From a virus (Duplodnaviria > Caudoviricetes): a stretch of 64,000 bases of DNA. The translations under genes and the position numbers were made by a program. The notes under the pieces were generated by a model, which searched no databases, was not told the origin of the DNA, and saw only the letters and a list, made by a program, of their open reading frames with translations. Location: IMG/VR virus record IMGVR_UViG_3300014043_000503, positions 51,182 to 115,181 of that record; one strand, given 5' to 3'. Of the stretch, positions 5,295 to 40,255 are shown in pieces. How positions within the stretch are numbered: the first letter of the stretch is position 1; every line of letters starts with the position of its first letter.

Positions 5295-5410
5295 AACTGC
5301 AAACCTGTCTTTTGTCAGACTGGATTTACTGCATTGGCGTTTCATAGGGTGTCTGTTGACATTGCCCTCACCGCCCAGAACCCCGTTTCCTTACGGGGTT
5401 TTATTTTTTA
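5295..5410 (-). ncRNA. Putative TnpB omega-RNA scaffold (approximate ends)
   Basis: Hairpins overlapping and following the tnpB stop (AACCCCGT-AAGGAA-ACGGGGTT; GAGGG...CCCT; TGCAG...TGCAG arm), at the position expected for omega-RNA. Confidence 0.5.
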
Positions 5411-6536
5411 TCGCAACCAAAGCTTGAGGGTGCAAGCCAAACTGCAATATGTTCTTAGCTGCATTGACATCCCTGTCATGATGTTCTCCACATACAGGAC
5501 ACGTCCATTCTCTCACTTTAAGGTTTTTCACTTCTTTATTTTGATGACCACAATTACTGCATATTTGTGAACTTGGATCAAAACGCCCAATAAACACAAT
5601 GTTTTTCCCACGCCATTCAGCTTTATAGGTCAACTGTCTTACAAATTCATTCCAGGCAACGTCTGATATGCTTTTTGCAAGATGGTTATTTTTCAGCATT
5701 CCGCTAATGTTTAAGTCTTCCAGACACACAGTGTCATAATTCTTAATAAGGTTCGTTGACAGTTTATGAAGATAATCAACCTTTTGGTTTCTTACCTTTC
5801 TATATTGCCTTGCAACTTTTAACCTTAATATTTCATGACGCTTAGAGTGTTTATCGGTTCTTGCGAATTTTTGCTGAAGCCTTTTTAGTTTCTTTTCTCC
5901 ACATTTAAAATGTTTTGGATTAATATACTTTGTACCATCAGAAAGTATGGCAAAATCCTTGATTCCCAAATCAATACCAATGGCAGTTTCTTCTTGTATC
6001 TTGACTTTCGATACAATGGGATTGTCATCATCAACTGTGATTGAGCACCAATAATCGCCACATCTATCCTTATATACAGTTAACGTTCCTATTTTACAGG
6101 CAGATAGGTCAAATTTACGGTTTTTACACAGTTTAACCCAACCCACCTTTGGAATCTTTACCTTGTAATTGTCAAAATCAAAATGTACATTATTTATAAA
6201 TTTACAAACACTCTTTGAATGTTTCTTTGATTTAAATCTTGGAAAATCCGCTTTTGCTTTGAAAAATCTTGTAAAGGCATTATCGAGATTTCTCAATGAC
6301 TGCTGCAACACGTTTATAGAGCATTCATTAAGCCATTTTGTTTCTTCTTGTTGCTTTAGAACCGTAAGTTCTTTAGCAAGCTGGATGTAAGTGAGATTTT
6401 TCTTGCTTTCTTTGTAAGCATTGATTTTACGATCAAGACCCCAATTATATATGAAACGGGCACACCCGAAGAATTGGGACAACATACGTTGCTGTCTCAC
6501 AGTCGGTTTAATCTTGTATTTATACGCCCTTTCCAT
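5391..6536 (-). CDS. tnpB: TnpB RNA-guided nuclease (IS200/IS605 family), no tnpA
   Basis: N-terminal HTH, RuvC-I GIDLG, RuvC-II LEDL, Zn ribbon CSNC/CPVC, RuvC-III DRDVNAA; AT-rich compared with flanks. Confidence 0.93.
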
Positions 6537-8030: not shown

Positions 8031-11000
8031 ATGGCAGATAGGGTTTATTCAGTCAGATATGACATTGTTGCTGAAGCAGGCAAGGCTATAGAAACATTCA
8101 ATTCCTTGCAGAATCCGCTTTATAATTTAAAGCGAAATTCGCAAAAGCTGTCTTCCAGCCTTATGACAACGGTAGAGCGGCTTAATACGCTTAAAGAGAC
8201 TTTGGACAAAATCTCAAGCACGAGCAGAAATATAGAAATAAGCGTTACCTTTGATATTGCCTCCTTTAATAGAAACCTGAAAGAAATGGAGCTAAACGCA
8301 AGGGCTTCTGCAAACAGGATCAGGGGTACGTTTGAATCTGTTTTCAAGGATACTCATGGTGATTACATGAAAAAGCAATCTCTTCTCGGCACGCCAATAG
8401 AGCAGGGCGTGTCTTCGGGAGACAAGGAGTTGAGAAAGAGGCTAAAAAAGGAAAACAAGACTATGCAATCCCTTATTGGTAAAATGAGGGAAGCGAGAAA
8501 GCAGGCTGATATTTATACTATAGCAAAAAGAAATCTGGCCGGTAATGTCAGCGAAAAAGATGCTATCAGCTCAATTTCGAGCATATGGAAGGGCTTTGGC
8601 AAAACATCACTGGCCAGTTTAAAAAAGAAGATAAGAGAAGGAGTTTATGATACGACTGTCTTATTGGATAAGGCTGAGAAAGACTTGTGGAGGTCTTTGA
8701 ATGCAGGGGCGCTTGCTCCTTTGGAGAATGGTTCTTTTTTGAACCTTGTCGATGTGGCAAGAGATAATACTGACAAGATATTTAAAGCTATAGAAGAAAG
8801 AAGGAAGTCAAATATTGCAAATATAGCGTCAGTTCAGAAAGAGCAAAAGGATATTGCAAAGAATACAAAGCCGTTAATGGGTAGCCAAAAGGTTGTTCCG
8901 GGGCAACCTTTCCTTTCTGAAATATCAACCAATCCAAGGGAAATAGCAAAAATCAGCGAGGCATATACAAAAATGCTCAGGAATATCTCTAAGATAGGCA
9001 ACAAGAACATTTCCGTAAATGTACGTGGCAACTACAGAAGTCACATGGAAAGCCTTGCTGAATTTGCCAAGACAATGCCGTTATTGAAAAGTAGGACAGT
9101 TAAAGTTAACGTAAACGTAAGCGGTCTTTCAAAAACAAGTCTTTCAAAAATAAAGGAACTGAGTGGGATAACCGACAAGAAAGTCCCGGTTTCCCTTACA
9201 TTGTCATACAAGAATGCAAGAGATCAGGTTCCACGTACCCTTGGCGTGCTTCAGAGGATCATCGCTGAAAGGGGAGGTGTAAAGGTTCCGCTCACTATAG
9301 ACCGTACAAAGGTCGGTGGGCAGCTCAATAGCCTTGTCAGGAACCTCAGGACGCTTATAGCTGAGAACAGGCTGACAATCCCGGTCAACCTTCAGAGCCT
9401 TGACATGAAGAAGCCTAAGAACGTGCCGACCATTAACGTGAAGGCGAAGGTTACTGGCCTGACGAGTGCCGTGAGGGAGGCTAACAAGGCATTCCAGGAG
9501 AGGGTGAGGAACATGAAGAACTCCCCTGCCCTTAAAATACCCATACAGCTGAAGTGGGGCGACAAGGAGAACAACATGAGGGCTCAGATCAAGCGTATGC
9601 AGTCTTCGATCCCAGCCCTGAAGGTAAGCGTTGACCTGACGCTTGCGAAAGCCCAGATAGATGACCTTGCAGCCTATATCCAGAGAAAGGGTATCATCAA
9701 CATGGGTGCCATGTCAGGGCCTAAGTCTCAGGGGCCGTTCAGGAACTACAGGCCAGGCTCAGGTGAATCGTTCGCTGCTGGCGCTGTCGGTGGCGGAAGA
9801 AGAGGTTCTGGAGGTGGTGACAGCGGAGGCCGTGTATATGGCGGCGGAGGCGAAGGCAGCAACTTCCTGACAAGGCTGAGAAGGTTCGCATACCCACTCA
9901 CAGGAAACCTTTCCTACGGTGCATCATCCCCGATGGCCCTGCAGATGTTCAAGGATATGCCTGTGATGATGGGTGTGGGCGGTGCCATCGGTGCCGTGAC
10001 GAACGGTATCGGACAGGCATTCGAATATCAGGACACAATGCGAGTGGCAAGGTCTATCCTCGAAAGGAGCTATAAGGGCAACAACTTCGAGAAGGACTAC
10101 AGGAACATGGAAATGACCGCGAGGAACGTTGCGAGGAATACCAAGTTCACAGGCAAGGAGGCTGCTGATGCCGTCCGCTTCATGGCTATGGCAGGACTGG
10201 ACATCCCGAAGATCAACAGCTCCATCAAGCCTATCGCGGACATCGCCCTCATCGGCAGGAACAACCTCGGTGACATTGCCGACATCATGACCAACGTCCA
10301 GACCACCTACAAGATACCGGCAGACAAGATGGAGCGCATGGCAGACGCTATGGCCAACACCTTCACCAAGACGAACGTCGATATGATGATGATTGCGGAA
10401 TCCCTGAAGTATGCGGGCGGTATCGCTCAGCTTACGGGAACGTCGCTCGGTGATTCGCTCGCCATGATCGGCATCATGGGTAACAACGGTATCCAAGGCT
10501 CGATGGCCGGTACTTCAACCCGTATGATGATGCAGAACATGATACGCCCGAACAAGGGTCAGGCTGCCATGTGGAAGAGCCTCGGCATCAGCACCACGGA
10601 CGAGCATGGCTTCGTGAAGGATCCAATCAAGCTCCTTGGTGAGCTGAAGGGCTACGTTGACAAGAAATACGGAAGCAAGGAATACATGGAGCTCGGAAAG
10701 GGCGAGGAGTTCAAGAACAAGGCTCTGGGAACGCTTGTCTCCAACATGTTCCGCGTCACCTCTACGGCTGGCGTGGCTGCCCTGCTGCGTGACTATGACA
10801 AGCTGGTAGAGCTTTCGGAATCCAACAAGAGCAGTTCCATCAACGGACTCTCAAGCCGTCTCTCAGGCTTCCAGCAGAATGAGGTGAAGGGTCTTGTCGC
10901 AAAGGTTTCCTCGTCGCTTCAGGAGCAGATACTCCAGATTATCGAGAAGAACACGGGCTGGATCAAGCAGAAGCTCATAGAAGCTAACGAGTGGATGAGC

Positions 11001-13814
11001 TCGCCCGAGACAAAGAGCAAGCTCGAAAGCCTTATCGAGACGCTGAAGAACATCGTTGACGGGTTCATAAACGTCGGCAGGGTCGCTCTCTGGGCCTATG
11101 AGAAGTTTAACAGCATCAAGATATTCGGAAACGGTCTGGTGGATTTCCTTATCAAGTTCCAGCTGTATATGACGGCCATTGGTTCTACGCTCAGGCTTGT
11201 CCTCTCACCACTTAATATCTTCAGCGGATTCAACTTCGGTGGAGGTATGGGCGCTGCTGGTGCTGTTTCAAGCATAGGCAGAATAATGGCTTCTTCTAAG
11301 CCCAGGGTAATTGCCAATGCGATTGGGCAAAGAGTGTATAATACTGAGAATGATGGCCTTGCTCCAATTACTACTGTATATAACTCAGGAAGTTATAAAA
11401 GGCCGTACTCTCGTGGATGGTACTCACCACTTGGGCAAATGCCCGTTGTTCTTGGCCCTATTGGTGCGAGAAATCTTAGGGACGAACAACAAGCATTAGC
11501 TACAATAAGCCCGATACAGCAACGAATGGCCATGTATCAGAGGTCGCGTAGCTATATGACAAGGGGGATGACAAAAAAACAGAAAGCACTTCAATATGCG
11601 TCAATAGACAGGCAGGTTGCCGCAATGCGTTCGCAAATCGCATCAGCAAGAACGGCAGCATATAATGAAACGCTTGCTTATGGCATAATGTCAAATGCAT
11701 TCCCGCTTCTTTATCGTAGGACATCTCCAGTTATTCATGGAAGAACGACGGTGCCTTTTGCTTATAACAGAGAGATGAGACCTATGCCATTCTATCAGTA
11801 TGCAAAAAATGCATCTGCAATCAAATATGGAGGCGCCCCTATAGCAGAATATGCAGGTGAATATAGAAAAAGAGCCGGTATGTATGCGACTATGGCATTA
11901 TCCGGAAAAAACTATAAAAAGCACGCTGAGCATATGAGGCTTGCTGAAATGTATAGAAAGGCAGCGCAACAAGCGGAATGGATGCAAATACAAGAAAGAA
12001 AAGCAGCTTTAGAAAGAATGAAAAAAGCTGCAATGGCTTCAAGAAGACCTCAGCAGCTTCTTGATTCTGAATTAATTTCTGCGTTCATTATGAGCAGAGG
12101 GTTTAAGAGAAGCAAGGGGTTGATTGGCGAATCTTTGAGGGCTAATTTTAGAGCTGGCAGGGCTATGGGTGCTTTCAGGGGCTTAGGAGGCATCAAGAAC
12201 AGTCTTATTTCAAGTTTGACAACTGGATTCATGGGGTTGTCAAAGGCTATGGGGCTTGTGCTCAGTCCTATTGGTTTGGCTACAGCTGCTATCACAACCC
12301 TTGGAGCGGGCGCTTACTACCTTTACAAAAAAGAGAAAGAAGGTAGAGAGGGAGCGCAAAGAACTATGAACCATTTAAAAAAGGTTCAGGAGCTAACCAA
12401 TAGCAGGAATGGTGGTGGTGATTTATCATCGCTTCCAGAATCATCTCCGCTTCATGTTGGCGTAGCTTGGGTAAATAGAAATAAGAACGTTATTAGTCAA
12501 AGTTCCATAAAGGGAAATTCATTATTAAAAAATAATCCGTATTTTAGAGATGTTGTTGATCCTGACAGGGGTGTTCTTGCAAATAGCAAAAGATATAGGG
12601 CCTACAGAAAAGAATTATACGATAAATACATTGCAAATGGATGGAATGTATATGGTGACAACATAATAGATGAATCGACATTTAATAACGGAAATACATG
12701 GTATAAATCCCTCCAAGGAGCATCTATGCTTCAGGGATCAAATTCCAATCGCGTAAGAGCTTGGGAAAAATATATATCAAATCAAGCAGCGAGAATTTCT
12801 GCCATAAAAGATGTCGGTGAGCGCAATAAGGCTTGGGGAGAACTTGAAAAAAGAGTCAATGAGGTTTCAGAAAAATACAAGTTGCAAGCCCAAAATCTGC
12901 AATCCGTTATTGTCTTACAAGAAAAATATGGAGGTAATTTAAAGAACATAGGTCAAGCTGCAATTCTAAACACTTCAGAATATAGGATAGCAGAGGCTAA
13001 AGCTATTGCTAACCTTATGACGAATATGGGTAACAATGCAGTCGGTCATTTTATTGCTTCTCACGTTCTTGATGCTGGAATTAAAGACAAAACTGGAGCA
13101 GCTATAAGGGCGTTAATTAGTGATATGCCCATTGGAGTTGCAAATGATTTTGGCCAATCATATAAAACAAATTTATCATTTGATAAGAGTGGCAATATTG
13201 ATTGGAAAAAGTTACAAGAGACACTTGAAAAGAATGGTATTGATTTTAAGCTTACTGTAGATAATAAAATATCTGTCTTGTCTTCTTTATTAGCACAAAT
13301 TAAGGGGAATCCTTATTATGCTAAGGTAACTGAATATCTACAAAAGATATTGAATGCTCAATTAGCAGTTACGGAAGCTGAAAACACCCTTAAAAGACTG
13401 AATAGCGTTGATTTCTGGAGAGGTTTGTTTGACGGTATTATCGACGGGCCGAATCCAGTCAGAGAAATGCAGCGAAATACAGAAAGCAAAGTCAAAGAGG
13501 ATGTTAAAAAGTGGAATAGTGATGATGGCGGATATATACGCCGTCCAAGAATGTTTAGAAGTCCGTTTGCCGATTATGCTAATAAAGCCTCTTACTCGAC
13601 AACTGAAAGCATGGGCAATAATAAATATATAACAAATGCGAGCTATGGTAAAGGCTATAACACCAGGCAGAATGTTGTTGTTAATGTTGGCGGCATTACA
13701 GTCAATAATGATGCTGACATAAATGAAATTGAAGAGAGAATTGAAAGAGGGGTTGTTACTGCAATGAGGGCAGTGATGACCGACCAAAGCAATGATTCAA
13801 TCTACAATATCTAA
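8031..13814 (+). CDS. Tape measure protein
   Basis: 1927 aa; TP901-type core (TKFTGKEAADAVRFMAMAG, ESLKYAG, GIQGSMAGT); hydrophobic helices in the C-terminal half. Confidence 0.92.
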   Translation: MADRVYSVRYDIVAEAGKAIETFNSLQNPLYNLKRNSQKLSSSLMTTVERLNTLKETLDKISSTSRNIEISVTFDIASFNRNLKEMELNARASANRIRGTFESVFKDTHGDYMKKQSLLGTPIEQGVSSGDKELRKRLKKENKTMQSLIGKMREARKQADIYTIAKRNLAGNVSEKDAISSISSIWKGFGKTSLASLKKKIREGVYDTTVLLDKAEKDLWRSLNAGALAPLENGSFLNLVDVARDNTDKIFKAIEERRKSNIANIASVQKEQKDIAKNTKPLMGSQKVVPGQPFLSEISTNPREIAKISEAYTKMLRNISKIGNKNISVNVRGNYRSHMESLAEFAKTMPLLKSRTVKVNVNVSGLSKTSLSKIKELSGITDKKVPVSLTLSYKNARDQVPRTLGVLQRIIAERGGVKVPLTIDRTKVGGQLNSLVRNLRTLIAENRLTIPVNLQSLDMKKPKNVPTINVKAKVTGLTSAVREANKAFQERVRNMKNSPALKIPIQLKWGDKENNMRAQIKRMQSSIPALKVSVDLTLAKAQIDDLAAYIQRKGIINMGAMSGPKSQGPFRNYRPGSGESFAAGAVGGGRRGSGGGDSGGRVYGGGGEGSNFLTRLRRFAYPLTGNLSYGASSPMALQMFKDMPVMMGVGGAIGAVTNGIGQAFEYQDTMRVARSILERSYKGNNFEKDYRNMEMTARNVARNTKFTGKEAADAVRFMAMAGLDIPKINSSIKPIADIALIGRNNLGDIADIMTNVQTTYKIPADKMERMADAMANTFTKTNVDMMMIAESLKYAGGIAQLTGTSLGDSLAMIGIMGNNGIQGSMAGTSTRMMMQNMIRPNKGQAAMWKSLGISTTDEHGFVKDPIKLLGELKGYVDKKYGSKEYMELGKGEEFKNKALGTLVSNMFRVTSTAGVAALLRDYDKLVELSESNKSSSINGLSSRLSGFQQNEVKGLVAKVSSSLQEQILQIIEKNTGWIKQKLIEANEWMSSPETKSKLESLIETLKNIVDGFINVGRVALWAYEKFNSIKIFGNGLVDFLIKFQLYMTAIGSTLRLVLSPLNIFSGFNFGGGMGAAGAVSSIGRIMASSKPRVIANAIGQRVYNTENDGLAPITTVYNSGSYKRPYSRGWYSPLGQMPVVLGPIGARNLRDEQQALATISPIQQRMAMYQRSRSYMTRGMTKKQKALQYASIDRQVAAMRSQIASARTAAYNETLAYGIMSNAFPLLYRRTSPVIHGRTTVPFAYNREMRPMPFYQYAKNASAIKYGGAPIAEYAGEYRKRAGMYATMALSGKNYKKHAEHMRLAEMYRKAAQQAEWMQIQERKAALERMKKAAMASRRPQQLLDSELISAFIMSRGFKRSKGLIGESLRANFRAGRAMGAFRGLGGIKNSLISSLTTGFMGLSKAMGLVLSPIGLATAAITTLGAGAYYLYKKEKEGREGAQRTMNHLKKVQELTNSRNGGGDLSSLPESSPLHVGVAWVNRNKNVISQSSIKGNSLLKNNPYFRDVVDPDRGVLANSKRYRAYRKELYDKYIANGWNVYGDNIIDESTFNNGNTWYKSLQGASMLQGSNSNRVRAWEKYISNQAARISAIKDVGERNKAWGELEKRVNEVSEKYKLQAQNLQSVIVLQEKYGGNLKNIGQAAILNTSEYRIAEAKAIANLMTNMGNNAVGHFIASHVLDAGIKDKTGAAIRALISDMPIGVANDFGQSYKTNLSFDKSGNIDWKKLQETLEKNGIDFKLTVDNKISVLSSLLAQIKGNPYYAKVTEYLQKILNAQLAVTEAENTLKRLNSVDFWRGLFDGIIDGPNPVREMQRNTESKVKEDVKKWNSDDGGYIRRPRMFRSPFADYANKASYSTTESMGNNKYITNASYGKGYNTRQNVVVNVGGITVNNDADINEIEERIERGVVTAMRAVMTDQSNDSIYNI

Positions 13815-13817
13815 AAG

Positions 13818-13850
13818 TAAGGCTGGCGAAATACGTCAGCCTTATTATTT
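13818..13850. terminator. Hairpin terminator between convergent genes, probably bidirectional
   Basis: TAAGGCTGGCG-AAATA-CGTCAGCCTTA stem with A-rich and T-rich flanks. Confidence 0.75.
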
Positions 13851-13851
13851 G

Positions 13852-14088
13852 TCATTCTATTTCAACCCATGCAGTATCGACTCTTAACGGTGAATCTTCA
13901 GGAAGAGTAGATAGGTCAAAGTCACCATTATTGTTATTTGTCATCTCTTTTACTTTTTCCAAATGATCAAATGTTCGTTTTACACCTTCTTTGGCTCTCA
14001 CTTCTCCTTTATATAGAAAATGCCCCACAATACAGGCTAAAACAAAGAAAAAGGAAATCGCTAAAGCCAAAATAGTATTCTTTTTCAT
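13852..14088 (-). CDS. Small single-pass membrane protein homologous to tape measure residues 1431-1481
   Basis: MKK plus hydrophobic anchor, then 51 aa with 30 ungapped identities to the TMP; has its own promoter. Confidence 0.85.
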   Translation of the reverse strand: MKKNTILALAISFFFVLACIVGHFLYKGEVRAKEGVKRTFDHLEKVKEMTNNNNGDFDLSTLPEDSPLRVDTAWVEIE

Positions 14089-14112
14089 ATCTTTCAGGTT
14101 TTAAGTTTTCGG

Positions 14113-14144
14113 CAAATATATTTCGAAATATCAGAATTTCCAAA
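14113..14144 (-). promoter_or_regulatory. Bacteroidota sigma-A type promoter for the TMP-like small gene
   Basis: TTTG (14144-14141), 20-nt spacer, TATATTTG (14120-14113): matches TTTG-N19-21-TAnnTTTG. Confidence 0.8.
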
Positions 14145-14240
14145 AAGAAAGCGAAAATTTTGTATTCTTTCACAACTTAAAACGATTTTGCCCTTCCCAA
14201 AACTTTCTTTTTGTTTATTTTTTCTTTTAGAAATAAACAA

Positions 14241-14878
14241 CTGCTGGGGACAGCTGGAGAGCAGCATTCCCTTACCCGCAAATGTTGGTTTGCGGTTTGA
14301 AGGGATATTATGACTTACTCTCCGAGGTCGTTACAACTGCAGTACGACGAGCCTTGTATGAGCGCAACATTTGCAGCCGTCTTTTTAGGTTACTGGATTC
14401 ACCATCAGACTGTCACTACTTACACAAATTGGACTGTGCATTTGCGTCGCAGGTTCATTCAGGAGTCCTTTCCTGTGAGTTCCACCACCCCGCTCATCTT
14501 GCAAGTTTCCGGCCTGCAAGCCCTTCCCGTGGTGCCGCCTTTACTAACTCTTCTTCCCTGGCGGTCTCGCTCGCTCCCGGTGGCGCTGAATACCCGTCGG
14601 TTTCCCTCTCCGCTTTCAAAACCTTACTCCTGCCTTTTGAAACCCGTTCAAATACAGTTTCGGTTTATCCATCCCTCAGATTGGTACTCATTAGCGAGCC
14701 AGTCGTCTATCGGATCCCAGCTTGCCATCGCTTTACAGTTGCGGAGTAATCTCGACGCAAAAGGCAGGCCCCGGCCTTCCCCGATGTTTGTGAGTGGAGC
14801 TTACTATCAGACGACGGAGTTCACACCACTAAGGTTTTCTTGAGAACAAAGGCTAACCGTTATGAACCTTGATTTTTT
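14241..14878 (-). ncRNA. Large structured non-coding RNA, ROOL/GOLLD-like (approximate ends)
   Basis: GC-rich island between AT-rich spacers with no credible CDS; local and long-range complementary segments; purine-rich minus strand preceded by CTATTAT. Confidence 0.65.
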
Positions 14879-14882
14879 TGCA

Positions 14883-14990
14883 TAATAGTAGCCTTGTCTT
14901 TCAAATCTTGCAGCATTGGCCTTGATTTATATTTTATTAACAAGGTTTGAAAATAAATGCCATTGCCAAACATGACTATTATTTAAAAAA
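14883..14990. promoter_or_regulatory. Divergent late-promoter unit, copy 2
   Basis: TAATAGTA (14883), CAAGGTTTGAAAATAAAT (14941-14958), CTATTAT (14976). Confidence 0.65.
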
Positions 14991-14999
14991 ATTGAAGTA

Positions 15000-16085
15000 A
15001 TGGCAAAATCAGGATTCATAAAGCTGACGGACGACGTGCTTCAGAGCGGAGCAAGCTCAGCCATCAGCGCAACGGCCTCCATCGGCATAGACTGGCTGAA
15101 CACTCAGTTTGGCAGCGGATTCAGGAGTAGCGGCACGAAGTTCTACTGGAATAAGGACATGCACGGCGGGATACTTGACGTCGTGGTGAGCAGTGCGTTT
15201 ACGACCATGAGCGGCATGCTGAAAGACTATGCCCTGGAACAGTATAAGAACCTGATAGGGCTGAACAAGAAAGGCAATGTCAATGGAACCAACGAGGCTG
15301 TAAAAATCATCAGCGATAACTTCAAGACCCCGACTGACCAGGTTAAAGGGAGCGAATACGGCATTGTCTCGATAGGTGACGGCAAGACTATCTCTGCTCT
15401 TGATTGTTATGGAAACAGATGTGTCGATGCCATCATGCTGAAAATACCCCTGAAGACACCTATCAACATTACAAGGAAGATTGCAAGAAGCAACGGAGAC
15501 AGTTCTGCCGGAAGCTATAAGGAAACAATATCCAGCAAATACCTCGTCTGGTATGACTGCACGGCCATCGTAGCCCCCAACAGCAAGAAGAACATCCTCG
15601 TTACGAAGGTGAGCGGAAGGGACTACAGCCGAAAGGAATTTATCTCGAACGGTGACATAGAGTTCTCAGTCTCTGGCAGGCTCAACAGCAACATTGCCGA
15701 CGTGTATCCTGAGAACGAGGTGAAGAAGTTCAAGCACATCATGGACTACAAGGGGCTGATAGAGGTGAACAACCAGGTTCTCAATACGCTGGGCGTGGAG
15801 AAGATATTGGTTCTGGACTGGGACATCAGCCCCCAGAAGGGATATAAGAACATGCTGGAGTATTCCTTTCACGGCATAGGCATCATGCCGTCCGTGGAGG
15901 TCAAGGCTTCAGAGGACACCGTTACCTTCATCAACTCTGCCATTGCATCCGGTTCTTCTGAAAGGACAGGCTGGAGTGCCCTTCTCAGCAACAAGCTTGA
16001 GGGCTTGAAGGAGGCATCCGTAGGCATACTTGACCAGGGTGCATCCACCGCGATAGGAATACTTGACAACGACTATATACTTTAA
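15000..16085 (+). CDS. Tail/baseplate protein (DUF6046-like tube initiator)
   Basis: KKNILVTKVSGRDYSRKEFISNGDIEF and YPENEV motifs; first structural gene after the TMP. Confidence 0.6.
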   Translation: MAKSGFIKLTDDVLQSGASSAISATASIGIDWLNTQFGSGFRSSGTKFYWNKDMHGGILDVVVSSAFTTMSGMLKDYALEQYKNLIGLNKKGNVNGTNEAVKIISDNFKTPTDQVKGSEYGIVSIGDGKTISALDCYGNRCVDAIMLKIPLKTPINITRKIARSNGDSSAGSYKETISSKYLVWYDCTAIVAPNSKKNILVTKVSGRDYSRKEFISNGDIEFSVSGRLNSNIADVYPENEVKKFKHIMDYKGLIEVNNQVLNTLGVEKILVLDWDISPQKGYKNMLEYSFHGIGIMPSVEVKASEDTVTFINSAIASGSSERTGWSALLSNKLEGLKEASVGILDQGASTAIGILDNDYIL

Positions 16086-24100: not shown

Positions 24101-27100
24101 AGACGCAGGCAGCCGACATGACATACGTATTCGCAGGACACAACTCAAAGCTCTGGAACTGCCTTGAGGGTGACGCTGAGTTTATGAACATCGTGAAGGA
24201 CGTTGACCAGGCACTCTACGGCTACTACAACTATGAGTCTTGCTGCAGGATGTTCGATGAGGAGCAGTCTGACAAGTGGTGCGAGGCCATCTACAACGAG
24301 AACGGACGCTACAAGTATATCGAGCCATACCTTGCCGGAACCGACTACCTTGCCATGCTTCAGGGTTCGCGTAAGTCACACCGTCACTACTGGCTCTCAC
24401 ACCGTTTTGAGATGCTGGATGCACGGTGGGGCACGGGCAGCTTCATCCAGAACTCCATCGAGTTCAAGTGCAATACCGGAACGGTGGTGACGGCTGAAAA
24501 GAAGCTCACCATCATCGCCGGAAAGAAGCTCAACTATGCCTGGGGCCTTGATAACGCAATCTATGAGCACACCGGCGTCCTCGATGCGAACGAGACCAAG
24601 GTGTTCATCCCATACGACCAGGGCGTGAGGGAACTCGCCATCGGTAACTCCGTATGTATCTACCCAGCCCCCTGCATCGAGGGCATAGACGTGTCTGACT
24701 TTGCCGACACCATGCGAGAGATACACTTCTCAAAGGCGGCAAACGGATTCACCGGCTGCTACCTGAAGAGGCTCATCATCGGAGGCGCTTCGGTAAACAA
24801 CCAGCTCGACTTCAACATGGACGGCCTGACAGCCATCGGAAGCGTGGAGTATATCGACGTGAGGGGATTCCACAGGATGACCTCGCTCGACCTCTCAACG
24901 CTCATCAACCTCCATACGTTCCTTGCAGAGAACAGCGGTATCACCTCGTTCATCCCATCCTCAGGCTGCGTGCTTGAATCGGTTTCGCTCCCATCCAGCA
25001 TCCAGACGCTTGAGCTTGTGGACGTGACTATCCCGACCGTCAATACGTTTGCATACACCCCGACCAGCGCCCTCCAGTACCTCACCCTCAGGAACGTGAA
25101 GGGTGATGGCATTGACTCGCTCGCCTTCATCATGACATGGCTGAATGCCATCGGAGATGACGAGGAAAGGCTGGCAGAGGTTGAGCTTATCGCAACCAAC
25201 GTGGCTTGGAGCAACGTAACGGTCGAACAGCTGTTTGCCATCGGAAAGATCGGGAACAGGACGCTCTCAGGCGTGGCATCGCTCTCGACCACACCGAGCG
25301 ATGAAGACCTGCAGAAACTCATCGAGCTTTACGGGACAGACTGCTTCAAGTCTGACGCGCTGTTCATGATCGACGCTGAAGGAGGTACGCTTTTCTACGG
25401 CCCCAGCACCCTGAAGTCCGGAGAGGAAAGCTACTACGGCTATATCGGATTCCCCATCACGGGAGGCTCTTCACAGTATTCGCTACTTATCCCGGGAGGT
25501 GTGTACAACGAGACTACGAGGCTATATGAATACGATACCGTGACGCTGAACCCTGAGACCGGCCTTCTGCTTACGACTGAAAGCGGGACGGACTGCGATT
25601 TCGTCATCAGGGCCAAGTCGAACTTTGACGAGAGCGTCTATTTCGAAAAGCAGGTAAGCGTCAAGGCAAGGTCTTATCCCCAGAGCGTCACCCTCACCGT
25701 TGACAGGGAGAACATCAACAGCACCTCACAGGAATGTATCTTCACGGCAGAGCTTTCCCCTGAGGTGTTTGACGGAACCATAAGCGTCGCATGGAGCTGG
25801 AACGACAACAATTTCTACAAGATATCGGAATGGAAGGTTGACAACAACACATATTGTGCCAAGTTCGGTACGGTGTATATCTCAGACAAGCTGCTTGAGG
25901 TAGATGTGACGGCCACCTTCACAACCTATATCGGAGGCGTCGTCGCGGCTTCGTCCTATGTCGTGGTCAGCAACAAGACGATCGCCATGACGAGCAGGAC
26001 GAACCATGAGGCAATGGCGGCTACATACGCGGCTGGATTCAGCAACAGCAGCAGGGTCTTCAGCACCGAGGAGGCCAGGGCCGTGAAGAGCCTTGGCATG
26101 GCCTATGCCGGATCAGACATCGTGACCTTTGACGAGTTCAAGTATTTCACGGGTCTCACCTCCATTCCTGCAGGTGCGTTTGCAGGGTGCCTGAGCCTTG
26201 AGGAAATCACCATCCCGGCTTGTCAGGCCACCATCGGAGATGCGCTCTTTGAAGGCTGTGCATCCCTTGAGAAGATAACGCTCAACCATCCTTCATGGAG
26301 CAACAGGTATCTCGGAAGCGGAACCGTATTGTCTGAGTATGCCGTAGGAGCTGAGAACACCAACCTCAGGAGTTTCGACGGCATCATATACGACGTGCTG
26401 GGAACGGAGCTCTATGCAGTACCGGCCAACATCACGGAGATAGCGTTCGAAAGCACCATGACCGCCATCCATGCAGGCGCGATGGCTTACTGTGACATAG
26501 AGGAAGTGACCATACCGACAGTCATTACAGTCGTTCCCGATCAGATGTGTAAGGGCTGCACTTCCCTTGTCACGGCCATCCTCTCGACTGGAACCGTAAG
26601 CGTTGGCGCAAAGGCTTTCGAGGGCTGCGCTGCGCTGAAGAAGCTTGAGGTAAGGACGGCATCAGTACCTACCCTCGTCAATGCGGATGCGTTTACTGGA
26701 ACGCCCATCAACGGAGGCGCGGGCTATATCTATGCGACTACCGATACATGGGGGGACTTCAAGGCCGCTACCAACTGGATCACATATGCCAGCAACATCA
26801 TCGCTTACATCATCTTTGAGGACGCTGAGGTCAGCAGGATATGTTGCACGACCTGGGGTGACTATATCGAGGTGAAGGTGACTACTGTCATTACCGACGA
26901 AAGCGACGTGGTGAACATCACGACCGTCACCACCCCCGTATCCATGAGAAACACCACCGCTACAAGGGGAACCTCGGTCACTGAGACATCTACGAGGGCC
27001 AAGACTTCTGAAGATACGGCAGGCTCTACGACCACTACCACAAAGACACCCGTCAGCATGACAACCATGCAGGCTGCTGCTGTAAGTTCTATTGGGACTA

Positions 27101-37627: not shown

Positions 37628-38933
37628 GAACTTCAAGCGAAAATCCCTATCCTTCAGGTATTGGTAAAAGCCTACAAAGTTAATTAATTGTAAACCAATA
37701 CAATACACCGTTTTAACTGTTTTTATATATAATATCCAATATTATCCTTGTTATTATTTTACCTAATTATTATCTTTGCACCATGATTACGTACAAATAT
37801 AAATTATATCGCACCAAAAACACGAAACATCTGGATAAGATGCTTTGCGAAGCTTGTTTTGTATGGAATCATGCTTTGGCCTTGCAGAAGCGGTACTACT
37901 GCCTGTATCACAAATACATCGGCATCGGTAAGATAAAAGCCCACTTTGCCAAGCGGATTCATCGTAACCTTCTACATAGCCAAACCACACAGGAAATTCT
38001 TGAACGCCTCGATACCGCCTATCAGCGTTTCTTTGAGCGACTGGCCAAGCGTCCACCGAAGTTCCGCAAGGCGAAGGATTTCACATCCATCGTGTTTAAA
38101 CAGGGCGGCTATTCCCTGAATGGCAACGTCATAACGGTGAATACCATCAAGAAACGCTTCAAGTTCTCATTAAGCCGTCCGTATGCCGGAAAGGTTAAGA
38201 CCCTCACCGTCAAACGCAATCCGCTGGGAGAATATTTCATCGCCATGGTGCTTGACAAAGACCCTGTCGCCATCCGAAAGACACATAATGGTGCATCGGT
38301 AGGCATCGACTTCGGCTTGAAGACATACATGACAATGAGCGACGGAACAAAGGTTAAAAATCCTCAGTTCCTGAAGACCACTCTCCCCAAGGTACAGCGT
38401 GCCTCTCGCAATCTTTCAAAGAGCGCATCGCACAGTCATCATCGCAAGAACCGACGGATGGAGCTTGACCGTATCCATGAGCGTATCGTGAACAAACGGA
38501 CTGATTTCCAGTGGAAACTATGCCATAAACTGTGTCGTCAGTATGACCACATCTACATCGAAGATCTCCAGTTGAAGGGTATGACAGCCCTCTGGGGCAG
38601 AAAGATGAATGATCTCGCACACGGAGCTTTCATCAACAGACTGGAGTATGTGGCTACCAAGTACGGTGTAACCGTCCATAAGATTGACCGCTGGTATCCC
38701 TCATCAAAGACGTGTACGTGCGGATATGTCAACAAGCAGCTTCAATTGAAGGATAGATATTGGACTTGCCCTGAGTGTGGCGCAGTCCATGACCGTGACC
38801 TTCTCGCTGCCCAGAATATTCTTCGGCAGGGCATTGCCGAATTGGAGAGCACCAGTAAGACACCTTCCGCAAGGAGGGCGCATGTGCGCCTGCATCCAAG
38901 AATCTCACGTATTCATGCGTGAGAGTATGTCAT
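37628..38933 (+). mobile_element. IS200/IS605-family element carrying tnpB only (IS1341-like)
   Basis: Right end GAAT-CTCACG..CGTGAG-AGTATGTCAT resembles an IS608-type end; putative left end after TTAT (37624-37627) with a degenerate hairpin. Confidence 0.65.
37783..38922 (+). CDS. tnpB: TnpB RNA-guided nuclease
   Basis: GIDFG, IEDL, CTC/CPEC Zn ribbon, DRDLLAA. Confidence 0.93.
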   Translation: MITYKYKLYRTKNTKHLDKMLCEACFVWNHALALQKRYYCLYHKYIGIGKIKAHFAKRIHRNLLHSQTTQEILERLDTAYQRFFERLAKRPPKFRKAKDFTSIVFKQGGYSLNGNVITVNTIKKRFKFSLSRPYAGKVKTLTVKRNPLGEYFIAMVLDKDPVAIRKTHNGASVGIDFGLKTYMTMSDGTKVKNPQFLKTTLPKVQRASRNLSKSASHSHHRKNRRMELDRIHERIVNKRTDFQWKLCHKLCRQYDHIYIEDLQLKGMTALWGRKMNDLAHGAFINRLEYVATKYGVTVHKIDRWYPSSKTCTCGYVNKQLQLKDRYWTCPECGAVHDRDLLAAQNILRQGIAELESTSKTPSARRAHVRLHPRISRIHA

Positions 38934-39669: not shown

Positions 39670-40255
39670 ACTCGATACCCTTGAACCTTATGTACCACTC
39701 AACAAAATCCTGAAGCTTGAAACCCGCTATATTGGCGATGGTTTCCAGGCGTGCTACGACGGCGTTTATGCAGGTGTCGATGCCTACGAACCTGATGCCA
39801 GAGACGAATACGAAGATAACGTCATAGAGAATCCTTGAGATATCGTCCATGAGCACCTTGTAGTTACGCTTCCTGCCTATCACGCCGCCCACCATCATTA
39901 CGCTGAAATGGTTTATCTCGTCTGCACTGGAATCCTTCAGCTTCGAGGAAGAGAACTTCTGGATGGCAATAAGGTAATAGACGGCCTCGGCGATGGATTC
40001 CTCAAACGTGCCGTACACATGCTCCAGGTATTCGCTCCTGAAATCCTCGTCCCCCATCGCATCCATACACAGGGCATCCAGGGCATCCGGGCCCTCCGCA
40101 CAGAACGAGCTGCTTTCAAACCTCATTAGGGCTTCAGATACGGTTCCGATGATCCTGATATACAGGTATTCATTGTCAACGTCCTTGAAGTCTGCTTCAA
40201 TAAGTGAGGCAAGCTTGATAGCGATCCTTTTCTTGTCAATCGTGTTAATATCCAT
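39653..40255 (-). CDS. Hypothetical helical protein (possible MazG-like remnant)
   Basis: 200 aa; VSEAL and GTFEESIAEAV segments; own promoter. Confidence 0.45.
   Translation of the reverse strand: MDINTIDKKRIAIKLASLIEADFKDVDNEYLYIRIIGTVSEALMRFESSSFCAEGPDALDALCMDAMGDEDFRSEYLEHVYGTFEESIAEAVYYLIAIQKFSSSKLKDSSADEINHFSVMMVGGVIGRKRNYKVLMDDISRILYDVIFVFVSGIRFVGIDTCINAVVARLETIANIAGFKLQDFVEWYIRFKGIEYGEAK

What the first reader, a model, noticed from the sequence alone, without database searches (positions are those of the whole stretch)
14241..14878. About 640-nt highly structured RNA (ROOL-like) inside the tail operon, antisense to the structural genes
Seen: a GC-rich non-coding island with many complementary segments. 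Local stems include CCGCAAA/TTTGCGG nested in TCCCTT/AAGGGA (about 14268-14305), CTTGCA/TGCAAG and TTTCAAAA/TTTTGAAA. Long-range pairs include an 11-bp CCTGCCTTTTG (about 14629) / CAAAAGGCAGG (about 14758), GTCGTCT/AGACGAC and AGGTTCAT/ATGAACCT about 410 nt apart. The minus strand is purine-rich, starts just after a CTATTAT motif and ends before a TTGTTTATTT/AAATAAACAA hairpin. Minus-strand words (CATAACGG, GATGGCAAG, AATGAGTA...CCGAAACTG, AAGTAGTGACAGTCTGA, AGTAAGTCATAAT) resemble, in order, my recollection of ROOL RNAs; this resemblance is unverified. Established: ROOL and GOLLD are large phage-associated RNAs of unknown function. Inference: a late-expressed large RNA in a Bacteroidota phage, either a ROOL variant or a new class. 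No tRNA is seen next to it.
Basis: partly seen in the sequence, partly recalled or inferred. Interest (0 to 1): 0.78.

Follow-up and report, generated by a model that had tools for sequence, protein, structure and literature searches.

The report
New large phage RNA, not ROOL
A gut or rumen Bacteroidales phage carries an optional gene, between its tail tape-measure and baseplate genes, for a roughly 640-base RNA that encodes no protein; the RNA belongs to a small family missing from the RNA catalogues, it is not a ROOL or GOLLD RNA, and its function is unknown.

Summary
The stretch at 14230-14870 is real and non-coding. All three minus-strand frames carry stops at random density. The two plus-strand ORFs have un-gene-like codon usage and are not conserved in relatives. 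The minus strand is 57.5% purine. On that strand a phage promoter-like motif (CTATTATnnAAAA, found before 17 ORFs of this provirus) precedes the stretch and a terminator-like hairpin follows it.

It is an accessory insert. Five close relatives lack it, and a sixth has a TnpB insertion element at the same site. A near-identical copy sits in a phage whose flanking gene is about five times more diverged.

Rfam 15 gives no hit, so it is not a ROOL, GOLLD or intron RNA. MFE folding is no better than shuffles, but long perfect complementary words are enriched.

Diverged homologues exist. One (L134) lies beside the same baseplate hub gene, on the same strand, in a phage whose hub protein is only 42% identical. 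Another (L132/L136) lies in a different context. They share five collinear blocks, an invariant hairpin, one hairpin kept by compensatory changes and a long 3' hairpin.

Verdict: a new, rare family of large, probably structured phage RNA. Transcription was not shown. Only three diverged members exist, so the covariation evidence is thin.

The parts
14872..14889 (-). Promoter-like phage motif ACTATTATGCAAAAAAAT pointing into the RNA. It is the inverted partner of the hub-gene motif at 14975-14992.
   Evidence: The 18-nt pattern has 9 matches in the window against 0.48 expected. CTATTA[TGA] lies 19-33 nt before 17 ORF starts of at least 100 aa in the 115-kb provirus, with consensus CTATTATAnnAAAA. 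It is also kept before the hub gene of close relatives and of two more distant ones. This copy has no ORF behind it. The homology of sample X2's contig to the window ends at 14870, 2 nt after the motif.
14230..14870 (-). Body of the candidate non-coding RNA (about 640 nt, 57.5% purine, 51% GC).
   Evidence: There are 10-12 stops in every minus-strand frame, as expected at random. Codon-usage scores of all six frames are -0.09 to -0.32, against 0.39+-0.145 for the phage's genes. No Pfam, PHROG or protein homologue was found. Homologues are L134, L132/L136, L147 and L157.
14791..14830 (-). 5' hairpin: outer helix GUGG/CCAC around the conserved ...UGAACUCCG..UCUGAUAGUAAG.
   Evidence: The same hairpin position in the homologues has a different outer helix: ACAACCA/UGGUUGU in L134 and CAC/GUG in L132. 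The loop ends in UAG(A)UAAG in all three. In each the sense strand folds better than the antisense strand.
14741..14758 (-). Invariant hairpin M1: GCG-UC-GAG-AUUA-CUC-CGC.
   Evidence: A 14-nt exact and 19/20 match to L134. It is identical in L132/L136 and L135. All 7 pairs are predicted and invariant in RNAalifold.
14531..14568 (-). Hairpin P2: GAGA-CCGCC-(20-nt A-rich loop)-GGCGG-CACC.
   Evidence: L134 has GAGA-CCGGC-(18 nt)-GCCGG-AACC and L132 has GAGA-CCAUG-(25 nt)-CAUGG-ACCC. Three of the five pairs are kept through changes on both sides.
14498..14520 (-). Hairpin CUUGCAGG-CCGGAAA-CUUGCAAG, carrying conserved block M3 (GCCGGAAAC).
   Evidence: Block M3 is shared exactly with L134 in collinear order. 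By eye, L132 has a hairpin CCAUUGU/ACAAUGG at the matching place (sequence); this was not counted.
14397..14406 (-). Conserved block M4 (GAUGGUGAAU).
   Evidence: A 10-nt exact collinear match with L134.
14253..14323 (-). Long 3'-terminal hairpin: outer GGAGAG(UA)/(UG)CUCUCC, inner CCCUU/AAGGG and CCGCAAA/UUUGCGG.
   Evidence: L134 has the same outer GGAGAG/CUCUCC but an unrelated 13-bp inner stem with three G.U pairs; that hairpin folds at -24.3 kcal/mol on the sense strand and -12.3 on the antisense strand. L132 has UAGAC/GUCUA plus CCAGA/UCUGG. The natural indels among near-identical copies cluster in its internal loop at 14312-14327.
14228..14256 (-). Terminator-like hairpin (7 pairs) followed by UUUAUUUCU.
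   Evidence: Found by the consensus scan. It is a consensus match only; function is not shown.
14211..14240 (.). A/T-only 10-bp hairpin TTGTTTATTT...AAATAAACAA just beyond the RNA.
   Evidence: In samples X4 and X5 the conserved block runs only to about 14199-14207 before the flank changes.
14145..14924 (.). Extent of the insert relative to relatives that lack it.
   Evidence: L002, L005, L006, L007 and L009 have a gap of about 115-120 nt here. L008 matches the window only up to 14144 and again from 14925.
14113..14144 (-). Host-type (Bacteroidetes) promoter TTTG-N20-TATATTTG of the small membrane gene 13852-14088. It is not part of the RNA unit.
   Evidence: Pattern match. The region is 91% conserved in L002, which lacks the RNA.
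14975..14992 (+). Matching promoter-like motif of the baseplate hub gene (15000-16085), divergent from the RNA.
   Evidence: (inverted pair I4, 89% complementary).

Best explanation
Window 14870->14230, minus strand, is a separate gene for a non-coding RNA of about 640 nt. The RNA belongs to a small family that no catalogue lists.

Shown:
- It encodes no protein on either strand.
- It is a discrete module that close relatives of the phage lack.
- It is far better conserved than its flanks, and its flanks recombine.
- It has diverged homologues in other phage contigs, one beside the same baseplate hub gene and on the same strand.
- The members keep five collinear sequence blocks, an invariant hairpin (M1), one hairpin preserved by compensatory changes (P2), a 5' hairpin whose outer helix differs in sequence between members, and a long 3' hairpin whose inner stem is replaced.

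Inferred:
- It is transcribed from the phage motif CTATTATnnAAAA, the same motif that precedes the sheath, hub and other phage genes, so it would be made together with them. It would end at the hairpin plus U-tract at 14256-14228.
- It acts in trans as a folded RNA, in the way the accessory phage RNAs ROOL and GOLLD are thought to.
- The invariant M1 hairpin is the most likely contact site for a protein or nucleic-acid partner.
- It spreads among phages as a cassette by recombination in an intergenic hot spot, not by a transposase of its own.

What it does for the phage is unknown. Because it is dispensable and horizontally exchanged, I favour a role in infection or competition over a role in virion assembly.
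For: Non-coding:
- Stops occur at random density in all minus-strand frames.
- Codon usage of all six frames is 3 to 5 sd below the phage's genes.
- No Pfam or PHROG hit. No homologue of P0001 among 5.8 billion proteins except itself, and none of the read-through minus-strand frame among 1.84 billion representatives.
- The plus-strand ORFs are not conserved in L134 or L132.

Own unit:
- A promoter-like motif found before 17 ORFs also sits before this ORF-less stretch.
- A terminator-like site follows it.
- The neighbouring small gene keeps its own host-type promoter.

Accessory and exchanged:
- It is absent from L002, L005, L006, L007 and L009, whose hub proteins are 84-88% identical. L008 has a TnpB element at the site instead.
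- Sample X2's copy differs by 4 substitutions and 1 insertion in 641 nt, while the adjoining hub gene differs at 9 of 213 nt. Positions 14871-14987 are replaced by 119 unrelated nt. Sample X4's copy has a different left flank.

Family:
- L134 holds the only ORF-free gap of 350 nt or more among 80 distant relatives, and it lies beside the same hub gene in the same orientation.
- Five collinear blocks are shared; 8-mer matches are 34 against 9.9+-4.2 in shuffles.
- Alignment z-scores against shuffles are 3.9 (A-B), 7.7 (A-C) and 11.2 (B-C), where A = window, B = L134, C = L132. All three are 57-60% purine with stops in every sense frame.

Structure:
- P2 is CCGCC/GGCGG, CCGGC/GCCGG and CCAUG/CAUGG in the three members.
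- The 3' hairpin keeps its outer helix while the inner stem is replaced.
- The 5' hairpin folds better on the sense strand in all three. L134's 3' hairpin has three G.U pairs and folds at -24.3 against -12.3 kcal/mol.
- The natural variant 14637 T>C turns an A-U into a G.U on the minus strand within the 11-bp helix.
- Inverted-repeat words are enriched.
Against: - No transcript has been seen.
- Folding energy and ensemble measures equal those of shuffles on both strands.
- Many of the long complementary words compete or cross, so they cannot all belong to one fold.
- Only three diverged members exist. I read the compensatory changes by eye or by pattern matching, not from a statistical test. 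RNAalifold on MAFFT alignments recovered only P2 and M1 cleanly.
- Some natural variants break predicted pairs (14305, 14314, 14491).
- Strand evidence is mixed for P2, for the window's 3' hairpin and for full-length L132.
- The promoter and terminator are motif matches only.
- L132 has no CTATTA motif within 400 nt upstream of M1.
Confidence: 0.68

Rival explanations
1. It is a long 5' leader, or cis-acting expression element, for whatever gene lies downstream on the same strand, and not a free-standing RNA.
For: In all three contexts, small same-strand genes follow the element. In the window it is the 78-aa membrane gene at 13852-14088. In L134 it is a 253-aa RNase H-like gene and a 140-aa ORF. 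In L132 it is ORFs of 129 and 101 aa. Several long stems are mutually exclusive, as in switch-like leaders. The terminator after the RNA is weak.
Against: The downstream genes are unrelated to one another. In the window the downstream gene has its own conserved host-type promoter, which serves it alone in relatives without the element. Six hundred nucleotides is far longer than known leaders. A hairpin plus U-tract separates the RNA from the gene.
Confidence: 0.12
2. It is selfish or passenger non-coding DNA, such as a non-autonomous mobile element or a fragment captured by recombination. Its conservation and inverted repeats would then act at the DNA level, or it has no function.
For: It sits in an insertion hot spot that holds a TnpB insertion element in L008, and the phage has two TnpB genes of its own. 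Copies are near-identical in differently diverged backgrounds. Perfect Watson-Crick repeats are symmetrical between the two strands. There is no thermodynamic signal.
Against: It has no similarity to the TnpB elements or their ends. There are no terminal inverted repeats or target duplications. It occurs once in the provirus. Members as far apart as 65% identity over aligned positions keep the same blocks in order, and hairpins are kept by compensatory change and by G.U pairs on one strand. A gene-type promoter motif points into it.
Confidence: 0.12
3. It is a diverged member of ROOL, or of GOLLD.
For: It is of similar size (ROOL averages 581 nt; PMC5737381). It lies in a prophage and is an accessory RNA of unknown function.
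Against: There is no match to RF03087 or RF02032 even at E<=10. No tRNA lies within about 25 kb. No ROOL-bearing genome was obtained as a positive control, but the same cmscan pipeline found the provirus's three tRNAs.
Confidence: 0.02
4. One of the plus-strand ORFs (14282-14749 or 14310-14843) is a real orphan gene.
For: Two frames are open for 155 and 177 codons, which is unlikely for random sequence of this composition. The indels in samples X4 and X5 add up to +3.
Against: Codon-usage scores are -0.27 and -0.32, against a minimum of -0.08 for the phage's genes. The sense strand of these ORFs would be 41% purine, against a gene mean of 54%. No homologues exist. The frames are broken in L134 and not conserved at protein level. 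A +1 insertion after 14327 in samples X2 and X3 hits both ORFs. The open frames are the expected by-product of a purine-rich opposite strand.
Confidence: 0.03

Closest known systems
ROOL RNA (Rfam RF03087; Weinberg et al. 2017, PMC5737381)
   Same: A large RNA of about 0.6 kb with no ORF, carried by prophages as an accessory element, with many helices and unknown function.
   Different: The ROOL covariance model gives no match at any threshold tried. No tRNA genes lie nearby. The host group is Bacteroidales-type phages, not Firmicutes, Fusobacteria or Tenericutes. ROOL's six junctions and three pseudoknots could not be compared.
GOLLD RNA (Rfam RF02032)
   Same: A large phage-associated non-coding RNA, proposed to be made during lytic growth, with unknown function.
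   Different: No match to the model. This RNA is smaller than GOLLD and has no adjacent tRNA.
ncRNA associated with the UG27 reverse transcriptase of gut phages (Mestre et al. 2022, PMC9226505)
   Same: It comes from the same kind of phage. This provirus encodes a UG27 RT (PADLOC E=3e-206) with an ORF-free stretch of about 700 nt next to it. Both are uncatalogued phage non-coding regions.
   Different: The RNA studied here lies about 40 kb from the RT and has no sequence similarity to the RT-adjacent stretch. The paper describes three long stem-loops beside the RT, which is not this locus.
Phage 'morons' (accessory transcription units inserted between essential genes)
   Same: It is present or absent among close relatives, sits between two operons, has promoter-like and terminator-like signals of its own, and is exchanged horizontally.
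   Different: The cargo is an RNA, not a protein.

Membership tests
ROOL (RF03087) | Match to the family covariance model at or above 99.1 bits. | tested here: not met
   There is no hit at the gathering score and none at E<=10 with permissive filters on 14000-15100. Four candidates in the whole provirus were scored and none reached E<=10.
ROOL (RF03087) | Length of about 580 nt, ORF-free, in a prophage. | tested here: met
   About 640 nt, non-coding, in an IMG/VR provirus.
ROOL (RF03087) | Frequent proximity to tRNA genes. | tested here: not met
   There is no tRNA in the 64-kb window. The nearest is tRNA-Arg, about 25 kb upstream.
ROOL (RF03087) | [quoted passage not shown] | not testable with these tools
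   Only three diverged homologues were found, so no reliable full consensus structure could be derived.
GOLLD (RF02032) | Match to the family covariance model at or above 150 bits. | tested here: not met
   No match at E<=10.
Group I / group II introns | Match to the Rfam intron models (catalytic core, domain V). | tested here: not met
   No intron family appears among the matches up to E=10. RF01998 (group-II-D1D4-1) has no match in the provirus. The element is intergenic.
IS200/IS605 TnpB element or its omega RNA | Adjacent tnpB gene, or sequence similarity to the ends or 3' region of TnpB elements. | tested here: not met
   There is no tnpB next to it. blastn and tblastn against the L008 element and both window TnpB loci give only chance-level hits.
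UG27-RT-associated ncRNA | Lies in the intergenic region beside the UG27 RT gene. | tested here: not met
   The RT is at G000 25475-26758, about 40 kb from the element. The RT-adjacent 699-nt stretch shows no significant similarity.
New family proposed here (window, L134/L157, L132/L136/L147) | Collinear blocks: UGAACUYCG..UAGUAAG (window and L132 only), GCGUYGAGAUUACUCCGCA, CGAGACC, then (window and L134 only) GCCGGAAAC, GAUGGUGAAU and GGAGAGUAA. | tested here: met
   Alignment scores are 3.9 to 11.2 sd above shuffles.
New family proposed here | Helices kept by compensatory change. | tested here: inconclusive
   In P2, three of five pairs change on both sides. The 5' hairpin's outer helix differs in sequence in each member. 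The inner stem of the 3' hairpin is replaced. With three sequences no statistical test is possible, and RNAalifold on MAFFT alignments is only partly consistent.

The most novel reading that the evidence does not exclude
This is the first described member of a new class of large (about 520-640 nt), purine-rich, multi-helix RNAs of gut or rumen Bacteroidales phages. The RNA is carried as an exchangeable cassette, twice beside the baseplate hub gene. It is made with the structural genes and acts in trans, possibly as a higher-order RNA assembly or a decoy, in the manner now being uncovered for ROOL and GOLLD. It would be evolutionarily unrelated to both.
Probability: 0.45. Interest if true: 0.72.

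Novelty: new variant of a known kind. Interest (0 to 1): 0.55.

Why it matters
Large non-coding RNAs with many helices are rare in bacteria and phages, and the few known ones (ROOL, GOLLD, OLE, raiA) have recently been shown to form unusual RNA-only assemblies. What they do is still unknown. A further, unrelated class would help in three ways. It comes from phages of the dominant gut and rumen bacteria. It sits at a defined, dispensable locus. Natural relatives both with and without it exist, which offers a clean comparison. The class would also extend such RNAs to Bacteroidales phages.

The recurrent CTATTATAnnAAAA motif may also be useful for mapping transcription units in this poorly known phage group, which carries the UG27 reverse transcriptase.

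Tried and rejected
Searches for homologues that found nothing:
- blastn of the region against 50,697 phage records and 72,556 plasmids gave nothing beyond chance.
- blastn against about 800 Bacteroidales genomes gave only chance hits (one search turned out to repeat the same family).
- Back-translated patterns from the spurious ORF P0001 found nothing in viral and metagenome contigs.
- Exact 18-21-mers chosen blindly found nothing, or chance hits inside coding DNA: L003 and L051.
- nhmmer with the single sequence missed even L134.
- The M1 pattern was not found in 401 Bacteroidales genomes.
- The hits to the M1 pattern other than L134, L132/L136, L135 (viral contigs) and L147, L157 (metagenome contigs) show no homology beyond the motif. 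L133, L137 and L138 lie inside long ORFs.
- L135 shares only about 28 nt around M1, followed by what looks like its own terminator. Its membership is left open.

Expression: no RNA holder was listed for the sequence, so expression could not be examined.

Positive control: none was obtained for the ROOL model. The search machine failed twice, and 43 Firmicutes genomes held no ROOL.

Other readings examined and rejected:
- Pseudogene: no Pfam hit on X-read frames and no hit among 1.84 billion representatives.
- Alternative genetic codes: all three stop codons occur in every minus-strand frame.
- Antisense regulator of another phage gene: the longest complementarity elsewhere in the provirus is 14 nt.
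- Link to the UG27 RT: the homologue-bearing contigs carry no RT, but most are fragments, so this says nothing.

Tests that gave no answer:
- The G.U-extension test gave no strand call for the window alone.
- The few natural variants neither support nor refute the MFE model.
- The earlier-scan note e1-3884544, on a roughly 650-nt Bacteroidota island RNA, could not be compared because no sequence was available and no shared words were found.

Full report
**Where it lies.** The window is bases 51182-115181 of a 115-kb IMG/VR provirus. The flagged stretch lies between four features:
- the tail tape measure gene at 8031-13814 (PHROG tape-measure families, E down to 7e-41), which ends in a terminator-like hairpin at 13816-13846;
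- a small minus-strand membrane gene at 13852-14088;
- that gene's promoter at 14144->14113;
- the baseplate hub gene at 15000-16085 (DUF6046).

More distant relatives of the hub protein (35-38% identity) occur in genomes labelled Muribaculaceae (Lepagella, Sangeribacter), Porphyromonadaceae, Bacteroides and Prevotella, so the host is a Bacteroidales bacterium. The provirus also encodes a UG27-class reverse transcriptase. That RT is typical of gut phages of Bacteroidetes (PMC9226505).

The minus strand is 57.5-57.7% purine. Folding energy does not stand out: MFE, ensemble energy, ensemble diversity and the share of well-defined pairs are within one sd of dinucleotide shuffles on both strands. 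What stands out is the number of long perfect complementary words: 14 8-mers against 2.9, three 10-mers against 0.14 (P=0.002), and one 11-mer (P=0.02). That places the stretch in the top 2.4% of windows of the provirus, and the higher-scoring windows shown are AT-rich spacer. Many of the stems compete or cross.

**It does not encode protein.**
- The minus strand has 10-12 stops in each frame, the random expectation.
- The two plus-strand ORFs of 155 and 177 aa score -0.27 and -0.32 on the phage's own codon usage. The phage's genes score 0.39+-0.145, with a minimum of -0.08.
- Neither ORF has a family match or a homologue other than itself.
- The ORFs are broken or unconserved in the homologous elements.
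- A read-through of the best minus-strand frame finds nothing among 1.84 billion representative proteins.

**It is not a known RNA.** Rfam 15 gives no hit at gathering scores in the window. With permissive filters up to E=10 it returns only noise. The ROOL model (RF03087), the GOLLD model (RF02032) and a group II intron model give nothing in the whole provirus. The same pipeline finds the provirus's three tRNAs.

**It is a separate, optional module.**
- Five relatives with 84-88% identical hub proteins (L002, L005, L006, L007, L009) have only about 115-120 nt here.
- A sixth relative, L008, has an IS605-type TnpB gene at the same site. That gene is 90% identical to a TnpB elsewhere in the window.
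- The insert spans about 14145-14924.
- Laying contigs of four public runs on the region shows near-identical copies in other samples.
- In sample X2 the RNA differs at 4 bases plus one insertion in 641 nt, while the adjoining hub gene differs at 9 of 213 nt. Positions 14871-14987 are replaced by 119 unrelated nt, so the homology ends at 14870.
- In sample X4 the left flank changes at about 14199.
- The block at about 14200-14870 therefore travels on its own.

**Transcription signals are inferred, not measured.** The 18-nt motif ACTATTATnnAAAAAAAT has 9 matches in the window against 0.48 expected. CTATTA[TGA] lies 19-33 nt before 17 ORF starts in the provirus, including the sheath and hub genes. 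It is kept before the hub genes of close relatives and of two more distant ones. One copy, at 14889->14872 on the minus strand, points into the ORF-less stretch and forms a divergent pair with the hub-gene copy. A 7-pair hairpin followed by a U-tract lies at 14256-14228. The small membrane gene downstream keeps its own host-type TTTG/TAnnTTTG promoter, which also serves it in relatives without the insert.

**Homologues.** Blind searches failed. I then collected 80 distant relatives of the hub locus from IMG/VR. Only one of them, L054 (the same contig as L134; hub 42% identical), has an ORF-free gap of 350 nt or more. The gap is 835 nt long. It lies directly upstream of the hub gene, on the opposite strand, exactly as in the window. 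It also holds the only blastn hit of the whole set.

The two elements share five blocks in the same order:
- GAGAUUACUCCGCA (19 of 20 with its flanks);
- CGAGACCG;
- GCCGGAAAC;
- GAUGGUGAAU;
- GGAGAGUAA.

Shared 8-mers number 34 against 9.9+-4.2 in shuffles. Scanning IMG/VR and the JGI metagenomes for the first block found a third type, L132 = L136, with L147 as a partial copy. This third type is 83% identical to L134 over 83 nt and lies in a different gene context. The scan also found an identical copy of L134 (L157); the other hits show no homology beyond the motif, three of them lying inside long ORFs. Global alignment scores exceed shuffles by 3.9 sd (window-L134), 7.7 sd (window-L132) and 11.2 sd (L134-L132). 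All three elements are 57-60% purine, with stops in every sense frame. L135 shares only the first block, so its membership is left open.

**Structure.** Five features recur across the three members:
1. The M1 hairpin, GCG-UY-GAG-AUUA-CUC-CGC, is invariant.
2. Hairpin P2 follows GAGA and precedes NACC. It reads CCGCC/GGCGG, CCGGC/GCCGG and CCAUG/CAUGG, so three of five pairs change on both sides. The loop is 18-25 nt.
3. A 5' hairpin ends its loop in UAG(A)UAAG. Its outer helix is GUGG/CCAC, ACAACCA/UGGUUGU or CAC/GUG.
4. A long 3' hairpin has the outer helix GGAGAG/CUCUCC in both the window and L134, while the inner stems are unrelated in sequence.
5. A hairpin occupies the GCCGGAAAC position in each member. 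This last point is a reading by eye.

Strand evidence leans towards the minus strand:
- L134's 3' hairpin has three G.U pairs and folds at -24.3 kcal/mol, against -12.3 on the other strand.
- The 5' hairpin is more stable on the sense strand in all three members.
- The natural variant 14637 T>C makes a G.U on the minus strand in the 11-bp helix.

With three sequences this is suggestive, not statistical.

**What it most likely is.** It is an accessory gene for a structured non-coding RNA of a new, rare family. It would be transcribed divergently from the baseplate operon, from the phage's own type of promoter, and exchanged between phages by recombination in a hot spot. I put this at about 0.68. 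The main rivals are a long leader for the variable same-strand genes downstream (0.12) and selfish or passenger DNA (0.12). The downstream genes in question are the membrane mini-protein here, an RNase H-like gene in L134, and two small ORFs in L132. Membership of ROOL or GOLLD (0.02) and a coding reading (0.03) are effectively excluded.

**Earlier notes of this scan.** One note described the neighbouring membrane mini-protein (e1-5865861). I only confirmed that the gene and its promoter are there. Another note reported an unrelated-looking RNA of about 650 nt in Bacteroidota islands (e1-3884544). I could not compare the two.

Noticed in passing
G000:C1:24776-26758 (outside the window; locus L045:340-2322): A UG27-class reverse transcriptase gene (427 aa, PADLOC RT_UG27 E=3e-206). 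On its downstream side is an ORF-free stretch of about 700 nt and about 50% GC that contains long stem-loops. This is probably the UG27-associated ncRNA proposed by Mestre et al. 2022 (PMC9226505). It has no sequence similarity to the RNA studied here.
   Followed up: partly
window 5391-6536 (-) and 37783-38922 (+); L008:1738-2877: Two IS605-type TnpB genes lie in the phage. The second is 90% identical to a TnpB inserted at the tape-measure/hub site of the relative L008. In L008 a remnant hub promoter plus the first seven hub codons remain to the left of the insert.
   Followed up: partly
window 6656, 14976, 30088, 31487, 58188, 61322, 62934 (+), 6567 (-), and further copies upstream in G000: The motif CTATTATAnnAAAA lies 19-33 nt before 17 ORF starts. 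It is conserved before hub genes of distant relatives and differs from the Bacteroidetes TTTG/TAnnTTTG promoter. It is a candidate phage-specific promoter or regulator site.
   Followed up: partly
G000:C1:35400-38300 (locus L049:15400-18300): An AT-rich (26-34% GC), ORF-poor region of about 3 kb. It overlaps the highest inverted-repeat density of the provirus (which starts about 0.4 kb upstream of it) and lies about 2 kb from tRNA-Arg (CCT) at 40031-40104. It may be a regulatory or origin region, or an element boundary.
   Followed up: no
L134:6115-6876 (-): In the homologous locus of L134, the gene immediately downstream of the RNA on the same strand encodes a 253-aa RNase H-like protein (phrog_531, E=4e-29).
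   Followed up: no
window 14184-14209 vs 14985-15010: The left edge of the insert holds an inverted, degenerate copy of the hub gene's 5' end (GATTTTGCC is the reverse complement of GGCAAAATC; 26 nt, 73% complementary). This hints that the cassette arrived by a rearrangement involving another hub locus.
   Followed up: no
window 14276-14287, 14365-14374, 14439-14449, 14753-14770: The word family GCAAAUG/CAUUUGC and the 18-nt segment GGCCUGCCUUUUGCGUCG can each pair with three different partners. These are competing or crossing helices that no single secondary structure accommodates.
   Followed up: partly
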